Shown: in pieces, positions 6,801 through 42,600 of the stretch
Layout: each line of letters starts with the position of its first letter
Position numbering within the stretch: position 1 is the first letter of the stretch
Assembly (NCBI RefSeq): GCF_006345805.1
Contig: NC_043009.1
Span: 64,976,001-65,040,000, forward strand
Length of the DNA stretch: 64,000 bases
DNA from: Octopus sinensis
Lineage: Eukaryota
Direction of reading: 5' to 3'
The notes under the pieces: generated by a model
What the model saw: the letters and a program-made list of their open reading frames with translations, nothing else
What the model was told of the DNA's origin: nothing
Database searches by the model: none
Translations under genes and position numbers: made by a program

Positions 6801-9800
6801 GTGATCTAGCACTTGCACAGCCGGGGCTGCTTATTTATCGTTCTCTAGTGTTTTTTTTAGCTCTATGCGTCCTCAACGCCAATACTGCAGTGTTATGATG
6901 TTCATGCATTATATTCACGTTAAGTATGATATACAGATTACTATTTTGTGTGTGTGTTTATTAACCGATATTTATTGGAAGGAGCATCGGCGAAAACCCT
7001 ATGATCTTCGAAGTCCTCATCATGGAGTTACTGCAAGACATATTTTGCTCTCGCAAAAGCAGTCAACCAATGATTGGTTGGATTCCTATAAAAGATTATT
7101 TTCCACCAATTGCGTTATACAATATAAGATTGATTGATTAATTAACAAAGTCCAGTTTTTTAATTGACTTAGATTCCTGTCTCTATTTCCAGTCACAATA
7201 TGTAATATAAATTGTATGAATTTATTTCAGATTCGGCCGACGTCGTTTATTTTTCGTTGGGTTAGTTATAACTTTGGCTGCTAATACCATCAAAGTAAAC
7301 TCACCGTCTTTGCTACTGTTTAATATTGCGTACTTTTTTGAAGGATTAGGACAGTCCGGAAGTTACTTTTGCACATATTCACTGAGTGAGTTCTTTTGTA
7401 TTTCGTCTTTATAATTCACTAACTGAGGTACCCGGTAAAAAATTACCGTTAATAAGATGTCTGCATATAGCCATGAAACACTTTAAGCCAAATTTCGGCA
7501 TTTTTCAAAAATTTTAAATCTATATTAATGGGTAGAACCAATTTCACGAAAAAATGAGCAGAGTCTGGTAGCGAACCCGTATCGTCGTCATTTTTGTGCA
7601 TGTGCGTAAAATGGCGAAATTTTACGCTTTGGGGCAGATTTCGTCAAATTGATGTCAGGACGGCTAGTGCGCAAAATGCCCAAATTTTCCTTGAGAAACA
7701 AACTGGTCTTAGCTAAGCAAAACCTAAAACGCTGGGGAATTAAAACAACGAATTGGAATAATCAAAACAATTCGCATTGAAATGAAGAATTTAGCAAATG
7801 CTAAATAGATTACCGTTAATAAGCTGTCTGTTTATAGCCATGAAACATTTTTCGTCAATATTCGGCATTTTTCGTCAAATTGATGTCACGATGGATTGTG
7901 CGAAAATTGCCAAAATTTTACGATATTTGAAAAATAGATACTGATTAAAAATCGATTTTTAAAAAATTCCAAGTGCGTAAATGACTGCATGGATACCCCC
8001 CCCCCAGGTGTCATGTTTCATGAAGGTCTGTTTGATAGTCTCAGAGGAGTTAAAGTAACAAATTCACCGTTTATACATATGTTATAGTTACTTTTTCATT
8101 ATTTTATATTATTATACATTATTCTTCTTTGTCGTGCTTTCAGTGATCGAAATGCTTTGCCTGCAACATCGAATGCCTCTCAATTTTACCCTACACACTG
8201 CCTTTCCTATCGGATCAATGTGTCTAGCAGGTATCGCCTATGCAATTCGGGACTGGCAACACCTGCAATATGCCGCTAGTCTTCCTCATCTCTTTTTCTT
8301 TTTACTATGGACGTAAGTAAACCATCTTGTAGACCGAGAGCCAGCCCCGATTTGATTAGACTTGAAGCTCCAAATTACTGGCAAGGCACAATATGTGGAC
8401 AAATGGTCCTAATACCATGAAACGTGATTCTTAAGTATGCTTACGTATGGATTAACTAATTATGAGATAATCAACTTCCGTAAATAATTAATTCAATTTG
8501 ACTTTTAGCTCCAGTAATGAATCACATTGAATATTACTCCTTAGACACAAGTTATACTTGAAAGAAAACTTAAGAAAAAAAAATGGGTATGGAAAAACAA
8601 ATTAAGAAGTTTTAATTGGACACTTAATTAAGAATTAATTAGAATTTCTGCTCCAGCGTCAATTACTTCGCAGAATTGTTCACTAAACCCAACTGAATCT
8701 ATTCATGTCACTTAAGAAACATTCTAGGTAAGGATTTCTAATTTAAGAAACATTTCTACTAATCACTATACACTAATCAAGGAGAAACATGGAGCTTCAA
8801 GTCTAATCATATCGGGACTGGCTCCTCCATTCTTAGTAGTAATTACTATTAATAAAGTGAAAGTCATTATTTTTATTATTTTATTAAAATTCTCAGCTTA
8901 TTTTGCTGGGTTGTGTATGATGGAAAGCGTCAGCTACCCAAAGCCAGCAGAGTAAAGTTCCAAGCAATGCTTATTTTTGTAGGTGTTCTTTCACACTTGT
9001 ATCAATCTTTTGGTGCCAATTACTATTAGTTCCACGTCTATTCTCCTCATTGACCACAGCCTTTGTATTTCCCACTTCAAATCGTTGTCGTTGTTCGGTT
9101 TTTCTTCTTTCTCTTTGATTCTGCTGTCACCGGGACATTCTATGTCGATTATCAGACAAGTTCTTTCTTTTTTTATTCAACACAACAATTTCCGGTTTCT
9201 GATGTCTGGTCAGGTGATCGCACTGAATCATTGCATCTCATAGGATTTTGCAATCTTCATTATCCTTTTGGGATTTGCTCATACCAGATCTTTGCCCTTA
9301 GTAGGCCGTGATTTCCACAGAGCTCCCAAAGGATCATCCTTGCCATATTGTCATGTCTTTTGTATTCGCATTGTGCCAATTTTGGGAATTCGGTAACGAT
9401 GTGCCATACCGTTCCACTCCTCTCACTACACATTCTGTATATGTCACTCTCGGCTGTGTTGTCTATTTTGCACTTCACAAAGTTGGTCCTTATCGCTTGT
9501 TCTTGAGCTGCGCGTATAAGTGCTTCTGTCTCTATCTTCAGGTCATTCCTCCCCATTCGTCTTGATGTTCATACCTCGTGCAAACTGTCCGTACATTTTT
9601 TCTCCTTCCATGCTGTTTCTTTTTTTTTTGTGTTCTTTTCCTCTCTTTAAGTTTTTTCTTTACACAATTACCAATTTTGATGACGCCGGACTTCTTCACG
9701 AGAGCGGACAGCAGTCTGCTGTCAGAGGTCTCACAGGGTCTCTTTCGGCATATCATAAGCTTTGATACTTGGCTGTTACTTACCATGGGAGACATTCAAC

Positions 9801-39600: not shown

Positions 39601-42600
39601 GCATACATACATACATACATACATACATGCATACATATATACATGCATACATACATGCATACATACATACATACATGCATGCATACATACATACATGCAT
39701 ACATACATACGTACATACATACATACATGCATGCATACATACATACATACATGCATACATACATACATACATACATACATACATGCATACATGCATACAT
39801 ACATACATACATACATACATATATACATACATACATACATACGTACATACATACATGCATACATACATACATACATACATGCATACATACATACATACAT
39901 ACATACATACATACATGCATGCATACATACATACATACATACATGCATACATACATACATACATACATACATACATACATACATACATACATGCATACAT
40001 GCATACATACATACATACATACATACATACACACATACATACATACATGCACGCACACATACATATATACATACTTTCACGCACACATACATATATACAT
40101 GCATGCATGTACGCACACATACGTTTTTATAATATTTGTATAACAATGACAGAAGTATAAGATACGATGACATCGCTGCGACCATAATTTCACGGGTAAG
40201 AATTCCCTTGATCGATTAAATGAATGCTCAATGTCGGTCGACATGGACGGGGGAAACTACTACTACTACCCCTCTCACCCCTTCACCACCACTCAGTCCC
40301 TTCATCCCACACCGCCACCACATGATGTAGAAGGAGCATTAATAGATTTTATAGATTTTTGTACAAAGGTCATGGCAGGAGAGTCAGTTTTGTAATATTC
40401 TGAAAGATATTCATTTCAGCAATTAAAATAACGAATTCTCAGGTTAGGACCAAGTCAGGAATTAAAGGGGACCCGTGTAATGTATCATATAGGGCCACAG
40501 TATTTAACGGGCTACTTGACTTATTTTGCCAGTGCCCCAGTATGTAACTGGTACTTTATTTCACCGAACAAAGTGTTTCACTGGTATTTATTTTGCTGAT
40601 TTTAATAATTGACAGATAATTTGTTTTATCGACACTACAGGGATGGTCACGGTGGAATTGGAACTCGGAACATAAAGGAACCGAACTATACACCACAATA
40701 TATTTCCTCTGATGCTCTATCGATTCTATCAACTTCACACCGCCTTCTTCAGATATTTCTTACAAACAAGTCAAATAAAGTCTTGTAAACGATTTGATCG
40801 TCTGCCTCCTGTTTCCAAGAGTGAACGTTTGAAATATCTATAATAATAAATGGAAAGTTTGTATGTTTGTGAATTTGTTGCTTTCACTCCTCCGAGACTA
40901 TCAAACAGACCTTGATGAAACATGACACCTGGGGGTGGTGGTGTCCATGCGGTCATTTACGCATTTGGAATTTTTTAAAAGTCGATTTTTAATCAGTATC
41001 GATTTTTCAAATAACGCAAAATTTTGGCAATTTTCGCACAATCCATCGTGACATCAATTTGACGAAAAATGCCGAAATTTGACGAAAAATGTTTCATGGC
41101 TATAAACAGACAGCTTATTAACGGTAATCTATTTAGCATTTGCTAAATTCTTCATTTCAATGCGAATTGTTTTGATTTGCTAAAACTTATTATTTCAATT
41201 CGTTGTTTTAATTCCCCAGCGTTTTAGGTTTTGCTTAACTAAGACCATTTTATTTCTCAAGGAAAATTTGGGCATTTTGCGAACCAGCCGTCCTGACATC
41301 AATTTGACGAAATCTGCCCCAAAGCGTAAAATTTCGCCATTTTATACACATGCACAAAAATGACGACGATACGGGTTCGCTACCAGACTCTGCTAATTTT
41401 TTCGTGAAATTGGTTCTACCCATTAATATAGATTAAAAATTTTTGAAAAATGTTGAAATTTGGCGAAAAATATACAGACATCTTATTAATGGTAATTTTT
41501 TAACAGGTACCCCAGCTAGTAAATTATAAAGACGAAATACAAAAGAACTCACAGAGTGAATAAGCGGATTGGAAACTTGCGGACATTCCTAATCCTTCAA
41601 AAAAGTACGCAATATTAAACAGTAGCAAAGACGGTGAGTTTACTTTGATGGTATTAGGGATCAAAACCATAACACACCCAATGAAAAATAAACGACGTCG
41701 GCCGAATCTGAAATAAATTCATACAATTTATATTACATATTGTGACTGGAAATAGAGACAGGAAATCTAAGTAAATTAAAAAACTGGACTTTGTTAATTA
41801 ATTAATCAATCTTATATTTTATAACGCAATTGGTGGAAAATAATCTTTTATAGGAATCCAACGGACCAATCATTGGTTGACTGCTTTTGCGAGAGCAAAA
41901 TATGTTTTGCAGTAACTCCATGATGAGGACTTCGAAGATCATAGGGTTTTCGCCGATGCTCCCTCCAATAAATATCGGCTAATAACACACACACACACAC
42001 TCACACACACACACACAAAATAGTAATCTGTATATCATACTTAACGTGAATATAATGCATGAACATCATAACACTGCAGTATTGGCGTTGAGGACGCATA
42101 GAGCTAAAAAACACTAGCGAACGATAAATAAGCAGCAAGTGCTAGATCACACAGGCACCCACTCGACGGGCAATCGCAGAGTTTCAGTCCATTAAATTCT
42201 TTTCAGAAGGTATTGGTCAACCGGAAGTGTTGTGTCCAAAGTTTCGCTCATTTAGATTCTATCTGGAAGGAATCCCATGAGTTTACAGAATTAAAATCTT
42301 AATCACACAACAACACACCCGTCCATTATAAAATAAATAAATAAATGAGTAAATATTTACCTGTCGGCAAGAATGCCAAATCCTAGTGAACCTACAAGGC
42401 AGCCAATAAATAGCGCAGAAAAGGCAGTGTTTTTCAACCAGCGTCTTTCACAGACTAAATCAAACTGTACAATAGTTTCCAAAAAACAGACATTAAATAA
42501 ATATAAATAATTATTGACATCGATCTATCAATATGTATTCGATGTTCATTTTGATGAAATTAGACACAAAAATGCGATTCTTAAATCTGATTTCTGTTGA

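What the first reader, a model, noticed from the sequence alone, without database searches (positions are those of the whole stretch)
7231..41707. Exon 3 hotspot: 12 replaced codons versus 1 synonymous difference
Seen: A FFVGLVITLAAN...GLGQSGSYFCTYSL versus [13 protein letters not shown]...[14 protein letters not shown]. Many codons differ at 2-3 nt. The intervening NTIK...FEGLG segment is identical in DNA, and the flanking introns are near-identical. By-eye alignment puts the TM4 cluster around human OCT1 K214-W217-Y221, and the exon 7 F>W change at the OCT1 I446 position; both are known pocket sites. Inference: these are islands of old divergence protected from homogenisation, or rapid adaptive change.
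Basis: partly seen in the sequence, partly recalled or inferred. Interest (0 to 1): 0.7.

Follow-up and report, generated by a model that had tools for sequence, protein, structure and literature searches.

The report
Octopus transporter twin with rebuilt pocket
Two near-identical octopus transporter genes lie tail to tail, and one copy has changed residues that line the substrate pocket in human relatives, including a conserved arginine, which likely gave it a new substrate that selection likely protects from being overwritten by its twin.

Summary
The exon 3 hotspot is real: 22 of 155 bases differ, 12 of 51 codons are replaced, 1 is synonymous, around an identical 71-nt core. '12 versus 1' overstates selection: path-averaged counts are 17.5 versus 3.5, dN/dS 1.7-2.0, not significant. 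The window holds an inverted pair of octopus SLC22 genes; copy B equals an O. sinensis RefSeq protein, and O. vulgaris has both copies. The O. bimaculoides relative matches A at 11 of 13 exon-3 sites and B at none, so B changed. Non-coding divergence is a mosaic (about 2% and 11%), and some species-specific residues are shared by both copies, which points to gene conversion. The strongest change lies outside exon 3: B lost the TM11 arginine (R506S; OCTN1 R469, OAT1 R466, OCT1 D474), also in O. vulgaris. B differs from A at 4 of 7 OCTN1 ergothioneine-contact positions; broader pocket lists show weaker or no enrichment. Best reading: B is neofunctionalised under conversion pressure, likely shifted from zwitterions towards cations. 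Main rival: B is degenerating. No transport data, and B expression is not shown.

The parts
3516..17476 (+). Copy A: SLC22 gene, 8 exons in the window (3516-3889, 6487-6590, 7231-7385, 8144-8312, 11242-11535, 14991-15205, 15677-15785, 17269-17476); first coding exon not found in the window
   Evidence: open frame of 541 codons, AG/GT sites; first exon not found by tblastn; contig of run X20 (RNA is the tool's guess) matches exons 2-4 with 0 other letters and joins 7385 to 8144
24482..51182 (-). Copy B: SLC22 gene (exons 51182-about 51123, 45268-44895, 42464-42361, 41707-41553, 38657-38489, 34296-34003, 29848-29634, 27528-27420, 24689-24482)
   Evidence: 541 residues identical to P0002 = O. sinensis XP_029643942.2; first 20 residues at 51182-51123; Pfam Sugar_tr and MFS_1
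7256..7280 (+). Exon 3 patch 1 (TM3): 10 of 25 bases differ, 6 replaced codons (189-197); B counterpart about 41682-41658
   Evidence: helix 183-202 in the model; position 194 aligns with the OCTN Na+-site Gln
7281..7351 (+). 71-nt identical core of exon 3, likely a recent conversion tract
   Evidence: the A-type contig of organism B (X11) reads T at 7287 (Ile, as in O. bimaculoides) where both window copies have C (Thr)
7352..7385 (+). Exon 3 patch 2 (TM4): 12 of 34 bases differ; Q221M, G223A, Y225F, F226Q, C227S, T228A, M232L; B counterpart about 41586-41553
   Evidence: 221 = OCT1 S213 / OCTN1 Q207, 225 = OCT1 W217 / OCTN1 Y211
15097..15099 (+). C422G (TM8), position of OCT1 A390 / OAT1 K382
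   Evidence: OAT1 number inferred from the offset of 8 seen
15736..15738 (+). F478W (TM10), position of OCT1 I446 / OCTN1 F441 / OAT1 F438
   Evidence: W also in the O. vulgaris B model; W in 1 of 40 homologues
17300..17308 (+). TM11 cluster G505S, R506S, L507I; R506 is the position of OAT1 R466 / URAT1 R477 / OCTN1 R469 / OCT1 D474; B counterpart about 24658-24650
   Evidence: Ser also in the O. vulgaris B model; R in 35, D in 3, K in 1, G in 1, S in 0 of 40 homologues
10858..11071 (.). Old, unconverted intron tract (29 of 196 columns differ) abutting a tract with 0 of 137 non-coding differences
17988..19942 (.). Innermost inverted arms (17988-18452 and 19942-19502) and the roughly 1 kb spacer at the centre of the inverted duplication

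Best explanation
Copies A and B are an inverted duplicate pair of octopus SLC22 transporter genes that likely still exchange DNA by gene conversion, and copy B carries replacements at positions that line the pocket in vertebrate relatives, which likely changed its substrate and are likely held against conversion by selection. Shown: the gene pair, the replacements, their direction (B changed), their alignment to pocket positions. A keeps Q221, Y225, F252, W386, Y393, E418, F478, Y482 and R506, the residue set with which human OCTN1 binds the zwitterion ergothioneine. B has M221, F225, W478 and S506. Inferred: without the TM11 arginine, and with E418 and D479 kept and a larger aromatic wall, B's pocket is more acidic and would favour organic cations over zwitterions or anions. 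Inferred: the TM3 patch and G223A/C227S repack the N-terminal bundle behind the changed TM4 face. Inferred: conversion tracts that cross these codons are purged, so old synonymous differences survive beside them while introns and the exon core are homogenised, as in the red/green opsins.
For: Both copies exist in O. vulgaris with the same diagnostic residue at 17 of 22 comparable sites, including W478 and S506. Against O. bimaculoides, 27 replacements are B-specific, 7 A-specific, 9 third-state, 10 uncovered (p=0.0008); exon 3 gives 11 to 0. B departs from family consensus at G223 (34 of 40), A263 (37 of 40), F478 (28 of 40), R506 (35 of 40). B differs at 4 of 7 OCTN1 ligand contacts, p=0.0023. 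Conversion: non-coding divergence fits two states, 1.9% and 10.6%, 2dlnL 78; 15 of 21 synonymous-only codons lie within 3 codons of a replacement versus 7.3 expected, p=0.0005, pS 0.132 versus 0.028; Q111 is in both window copies but L in both O. vulgaris copies, and sites 44 and 561 are also discordant. A B-type exon 3 in organism D (X10) differs from window B at 5 codons, all non-synonymous among the 17 of 19 letters printed, three of them codons already changed from A. OCTN1 R469A loses over 85% of ergothioneine uptake, while OCT1 D474A keeps about 20% of cation uptake.
Against: dN/dS in exon 3 is not significantly above 1 (p=0.22-0.35) and is 0.74-0.88 over the gene, as relaxed selection would give. 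Pocket enrichment depends on the list: 4 of 24 on an OCT1/OAT1 list (p=0.20; B-specific changes only, p=0.047), 5 of 25 on the union (p=0.087); the OCTN1 list was met after the differences were known. Only 2 of 13 exon-3 replacements are named contacts. The same Arg-to-Ser change in URAT1 is a loss-of-function variant. At a neutral old-tract rate of 15% two such patches arise by chance with p=0.18 (0.03 at 13%, 0.002 at 10.6%). Adjacent mismatches are about twice as common as expected in introns (18 versus 9.6), so multi-base mutation may explain part of the clustering. Outside exon 3 the asymmetry is 16 to 7, p=0.09. No substrate is known for either copy.
Confidence: 0.6

Rival explanations
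1. Copy B is degenerating under relaxed selection. Its replacements, the lost arginine included, are damage; the patches are old tracts that conversion has not yet reached, and high divergence now blocks it.
For: Gene-wide dN/dS 0.74-0.88; exon 3 not significantly above 1. URAT1 R477S is a loss-of-function variant; OAT1 R466A and URAT1 R477A are inactive. Two patches can arise at a 15% neutral rate with p=0.18. The O. vulgaris B model differs from window B at 10 residues and the A model from window A at 4 (counted).
Against: B has an intact 562-codon frame and canonical splice sites; S506 and W478 are shared with O. vulgaris, a split put at about 2.5 million years; organism D's exon 3 is in frame with five further replacements and no printed synonymous change (Poisson p=0.014 at 1.2% neutral distance, 0.086 at 2%). 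A-to-B conversion should erase neutral patches that sit beside a 71-nt identical core.
Confidence: 0.2
2. The duplication is young and conversion matters little; B simply evolved fast under positive selection, and the non-coding mosaic reflects repeats and local mutation rate.
For: A and B group together against O. bimaculoides (quick tree, SH-aLRT 91; site patterns 6 to 3 to 1). Some high-divergence blocks are short and partly repeat-derived; intron 3 of A is a high-copy repeat.
Against: Sharp switches inside contiguous blocks (29 of 196, then 0 of 137); residues 111, 561 and 44 need exchange between copies or repeated parallel change; most of introns 4 and 5 no longer align.
Confidence: 0.13
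3. B's patches were copied in from a third SLC22 paralog.
For: Octopus has many SLC22 genes (15 O. sinensis hits). The whole genome could not be searched.
Against: The other O. sinensis paralogs found are at most 56% identical; none of the 34 other rows aligned carries B's patches; C191, P197 and S506 occur in 0 of 40 homologues; organism D shows intermediate codons, which fits stepwise change; each DNA run laid one exon-3 contig, A-type or B-type.
Confidence: 0.05
4. A and B are two haplotypes of one gene, mis-assembled as an inverted pair.
For: High identity over long blocks.
Against: O. vulgaris has two models with consecutive accessions, A-type and B-type at 17 of 22 sites; intron lengths differ by kilobases.
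Confidence: 0.02

Closest known systems
Peak of divergence under gene conversion: human red/green opsin exon 5 (Fawcett and Innan 2011, PMC3924837, passages read; model of Teshima and Innan 2008, seen only as cited there)
   Same: Neighbouring duplicates, homogenised introns, divergence peaked at codons that line a ligand site.
   Different: Here the copies are inverted, the peaks are several and short (25-34 nt) with a converted core between them, one copy carries most changes, and no functional difference is shown.
Human OCTN1 / OCTN2 (SLC22A4/5) (PMC13669368, section 7 and passages)
   Same: Copy A has the Q207, Y211, F239, W349, Y356, E381, F441, Y445 and R469 equivalents: a bipolar Glu/Arg pocket.
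   Different: About 27% identity to OCTN2; not grouped with the OCTN-like row in the tree; Na+-site S28, Q180, N210 are F, T, S in A. B lacks Q207, Y211, F441, R469.
Vertebrate OCT1/OCT2 (SLC22A1/2) (bioRxiv 2023.03.15.532610, PMC10567722, passages)
   Same: No arginine at the TM11 site; B keeps acidic residues at the OCT2 E387 and E448 positions (E418, D479).
   Different: OCTs have Asp474 paired with Lys214; B has Ser at both positions. Independent origin.
URAT1 R477S (PDB 8WJG/8WJQ; PMC11811179, PMC11937972, passages)
   Same: The identical Arg-to-Ser change at the same position.
   Different: In URAT1 it is a rare loss-of-function variant; in B it is present in two species' gene models and comes with further pocket changes.

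Membership tests
SLC22 (MFS) transporter | 12-helix MFS fold with a large loop between TM1 and TM2 | tested here: met
   AlphaFold2 model of P0002, pLDDT 87; top Foldseek hits URAT1, OCTN2, OCT2, TMq 0.73-0.83; phmmer E 1e-66 to OCT1; Pfam PF00083, PF07690
SLC22 (MFS) transporter | Transport of organic ions | not testable with these tools
   needs uptake assays
OCTN subfamily | Bipolar pocket, Glu (E381) plus Arg (R469) | tested here: met
   met in A (E418, R506); not met in B (S506)
OCTN subfamily | Na+ site S28, N32, Q180, N210 | tested here: not met
   only the N32 equivalent (N56) is kept in A and B
OCTN subfamily | Orthology to vertebrate SLC22A4/5 | tested here: not met
   A and B sit in a starred clade of 22 rows that excludes the OCTN-like row; quick tree, long outgroup branches, one OCTN-like row only
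OCT subfamily (SLC22A1-3) | Asp474-Lys214 pair | tested here: not met
   A has R506/S222, B has S506/S222
Neofunctionalised duplicate under gene conversion | Conversion between the copies | tested here: met
   two-state mosaic; species-specific residue shared by paralogs; no orthologous intron DNA of known phase was available
Neofunctionalised duplicate under gene conversion | Divergence peak, silent sites included, at the changed codons | tested here: met
   pS 0.132 near versus 0.028 far, p=0.0005; multi-base mutation not excluded
Neofunctionalised duplicate under gene conversion | Positive selection on the changed sites | tested here: inconclusive
   exon 3 dN/dS 1.7-2.0, p=0.22-0.35; five replacements between two B-type exons
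Neofunctionalised duplicate under gene conversion | Different function of the two products | not testable with these tools
   needs transport assays

The most novel reading that the evidence does not exclude
Copy B is a natural, working SLC22 with no charged residue at the TM11 selectivity site: an independent, recent switch from zwitterion to cation transport in the O. vulgaris group, still evolving at TM3/TM4, with its 90%-identical unswitched twin next door. The pair would show a neutral route between the Arg (OAT/OCTN) and Asp (OCT) states of the family.
Probability: 0.3. Interest if true: 0.68.

Novelty: new variant of a known kind. Interest (0 to 1): 0.46.

Why it matters
How SLC22 transporters choose between anions, zwitterions and cations turns on one TM11 position (Arg in OATs and OCTNs, Asp in OCTs), and neutral substitutions there usually cripple the anion and zwitterion carriers. 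A and B differ at 53 of 541 residues, four of them at OCTN1 ligand contacts, so a handful of swap mutants could test directly how a pocket is rebuilt after the arginine is lost. The pair is also a candidate invertebrate example of selection holding divergence peaks against gene conversion. The evolutionary pattern itself is known.

Tried and rejected
No whole genome was held, so the third-donor test rests on protein collections and four laid runs. The first self-BLAST was swamped by microsatellites and was redone. One search used a wrong start for the last exon; corrected, and all statistics come. No RNA holder was listed as such; the two RNA-guess runs laid gave A-type spliced contigs and no B-type contig: these runs were found with A's words and contigs drop variants, so this says nothing on B's expression. 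The exon-4 contigs of X4 and X10 read B-like at 8275, 8283 and 8293 but X10 has only 5 other letters over 8102-8328, against 14 A/B differences in the window: a mosaic allele or a chimeric contig, not resolved. Dating the duplication against O. bimaculoides failed: site patterns 6:3:1 and a quick tree (the careful search did not finish) favour (A,B), but conversion gives the same. The O. vulgaris models lack exon 3. Paper searches for octopus or invertebrate SLC22 evolution listed no study of this pair; a search for a recalled OAT3 charge-swap mutant found nothing and is not used. Three look-ups of earlier scan findings returned nothing. No supplements were read; bioRxiv supplements are closed, and the sequence alignments in them could refine the pocket lists.
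Full report
What the window holds. Two SLC22 genes lie tail to tail as an inverted duplication. Copy A (+, 3516-17476) has 8 exons in the window; copy B (-, 51182-24482) has the same 8 plus a first exon. Both frames are open for 541 codons with AG/GT sites. B is identical to P0002, an O. sinensis RefSeq protein, so the window is most likely O. sinensis. No protein equal to A came up in three searches, yet a 1746-nt contig of run X20 (RNA is the tool's guess) matches A's exons 2-4 with 0 other letters, joins 7385 to 8144 at GT..AG, and runs on into the neighbouring exons; X11 shows the same joint. 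O. vulgaris has two models with consecutive accessions that carry the A and B residues at 17 of 22 comparable sites (4 are window-specific, 1 is swapped). The pair is therefore real. Residue numbers below follow P0002.

The observation. In exon 3, 22 of 155 bases differ, 12 of 51 whole codons are replaced, 1 is synonymous, a 13th replacement is in the split codon, and 71 nt in the middle are identical. The excess over the rest of the gene (41 of 490) holds up: p=0.0019, and 0.03 or 0.008 in scan tests. But path-averaged steps are 17.5 non-synonymous to 3.5 synonymous, dN/dS 1.66-1.99, p=0.22-0.35: the exon does not prove positive selection. The upstream intron is near-identical (14 of 918), the downstream flank is not (12 of 89).

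Direction of change. Two O. bimaculoides fragments cover 452 of 541 residues. Of 53 A/B differences, 27 are B-specific, 7 A-specific, 9 third-state, 10 uncovered (p=0.0008); exon 3 gives 11 to 0 with 2 third-state; outside it 16 to 7 (p=0.09). If the O. bimaculoides gene were A's orthologue from an older duplication, this count would not be a rate test; I could not date the duplication (site patterns 6:3:1, quick tree (A,B) at 91). At the conserved sites the direction does not depend on that: among 40 homologues G223 occurs in 34, A263 in 37, F478 in 28 (W in 1), R506 in 35 (D 3, K 1, G 1, S 0). One B-type contig from organism D (X10) spans exon 3; 17 of its 19 other letters were printed. It shares the TM4 patch and most of the TM3 patch, but differs from window B at codons 189, 194, 197, 206 and 226, all non-synonymous; bases 7384-7385 are unresolved. 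Its neutral distance looks small (4 of 346 bases against A nearby, 3 of which could be A/B differences), giving Poisson p=0.014 at 1.2% and 0.086 at 2%. This is suggestive of continued change and shows that at least one multi-base codon (194) arose in steps.

Conversion. Over 16 hand-picked colinear blocks (5917 non-coding columns, microsatellites and gap edges dropped, 239 mismatches) a two-state model, 1.9% and 10.6%, beats one rate by 2dlnL 78; window variance is 4.8 for a mean of 2.0; the longest identical run is 212 (p=0.024). Some short blocks may be repeats, but the switch from 29 of 196 to 0 of 137 is inside one block. Synonymous-only codons cluster at replacements: 15 of 21 within 3 codons versus 7.3 expected, pS 0.132 versus 0.028, so silent divergence beside the replaced codons matches the old intron tracts. 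Adjacent mismatches are also enriched in introns (18 versus 9.6), so multi-base mutation may contribute. Q111 is in both window copies while both O. vulgaris copies, O. bimaculoides and Argonauta have L; K561 and F44 are also discordant. In the identical core, both window copies have T199 while O. bimaculoides and the A-type contig of organism B have I. Against a neutral old-tract rate, two patches as dense as 10 in 25 and 12 in 34 have p=0.002 at 10.6%, 0.03 at 13% and 0.18 at 15%. The review PMC3924837 (passages) describes this pattern, a divergence peak at selected sites amid converted DNA, for the red/green opsins.

Structure mapping. The model of B (pLDDT 87) puts patch 1 in TM3 (183-202) and patch 2 in TM4 (207-234); its closest folds are URAT1, OCTN2 and OCT2. 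By alignment to OCT1, 221=S213, 225=W217, 422=A390, 478=I446, 506=D474; the K214 and Y221 equivalents do not differ. A's last exon aligns without gaps to OAT1 and URAT1, placing R506 on R466 and R477. PMC13669368 (passages and section 7) lists the OCTN1 ergothioneine contacts Q207, I208, Y211, C236, F239, F441 and R469 and gives their OCT1 equivalents; a fish OCTN-like row confirms the register. A keeps Q, Y, F, F and R there; B differs at 4 of 7 (p=0.0023). That list was met after the differences were known. A 24-site list from OCT1 and OAT1 papers (passages of PMC10567722, PMC10643130, bioRxiv 2023.03.15.532610, PMC10940649, PMC11827633) gives 4 of 24, p=0.20 (0.047 for B-specific changes); the union gives 5 of 25, p=0.087; none of the 26 sites where A and B both differ from O. 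bimaculoides is on the 24-site list. Only 221 and 225 among the exon-3 changes are named contacts. Position 194 is the OCTN Na+-site Gln, which faces the N-bundle interior; that site is not intact in either copy.

How it most likely works. Inferred: A has a bipolar Glu/Arg pocket suited to zwitterions. B lost the arginine, kept E418 and D479 (the OCT2 E387 and E448 positions) and gained W478, which would favour cations. OCTN1 R469A loses over 85% of uptake while OCT1 D474A keeps about 20%, so a neutral residue there is compatible with cation transport. Against this, URAT1 R477S is a loss-of-function variant (passages of PMC11811179 and PMC11937972) and R477A is inactive (PMC11528023), so B could be dying. 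I put neofunctionalisation under conversion at 0.6, degeneration at 0.2, fast change without much conversion at 0.13, a third donor at 0.05 and an assembly artefact at 0.02. The specific cation switch is about 0.3. That inverted duplicates can convert without losing a copy is recalled knowledge, not from a call. The O. vulgaris/O. sinensis split of 2.5 million years and the O. bimaculoides split of 34 million years are from passages of bioRxiv 2023.05.16.540928.

Novelty. The family and the evolutionary pattern are known. Four searches of the open library (listings only) showed no study of this pair or of octopus SLC22 pocket evolution; subscription journals are not covered. A natural SLC22 with Ser at the TM11 site beside a 90%-identical Arg-bearing twin is a new variant and a convenient test system. 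Interest 0.46.

Noticed in passing
window:3516-17476 (+): Copy A did not appear in the protein collection (three searches), although a spliced contig matches it exactly; it may be unannotated. Its first coding exon is not in the window.
   Followed up: partly
P0001, P0003: Both O. vulgaris gene models omit or misread exons 3, 4 and 6 and truncate exon 5; the B model's first exon maps to window 51921-51844 rather than 51182-51123.
   Followed up: partly
   Followed up: no
window:8144-8312: Exon-4 contigs of organisms C and D are B-like at three bases near the 3' end but X10 lacks most other B letters: a mosaic allele or a chimeric contig.
   Followed up: partly
window:1091-3204 (-): Broken retroelement with a GIY-YIG domain (Pfam E 1e-4), Penelope-like by recall, just upstream of A's first in-window exon.
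   Followed up: partly
window:25315-26109 (-); 15900-16800 and 26360-27300: A mariner transposase remnant only in B's last intron; another transposase-like remnant (by eye; no Pfam hit for the piece scanned) is shared by both copies in a block of 97.5% identity.
   Followed up: partly
window:22167-24225 and 47846-49230: Two recent direct duplications (about 1.08 kb at 98.5%; about 0.53 kb at 95%).
   Followed up: no
window:17988-19942: The inverted arms run to within about 1 kb of each other, which suggests a fold-back origin of the duplication.
   Followed up: no
window:7405-8074: A's intron 3 is mostly a high-copy repeat (depth up to about 2000 against 8-10 in DNA runs), shared in place by both copies.
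   Followed up: no
P0031: An unnamed SLC22 protein has Gly at the TM11 arginine position, the only other uncharged case among 40 homologues.
   Followed up: no
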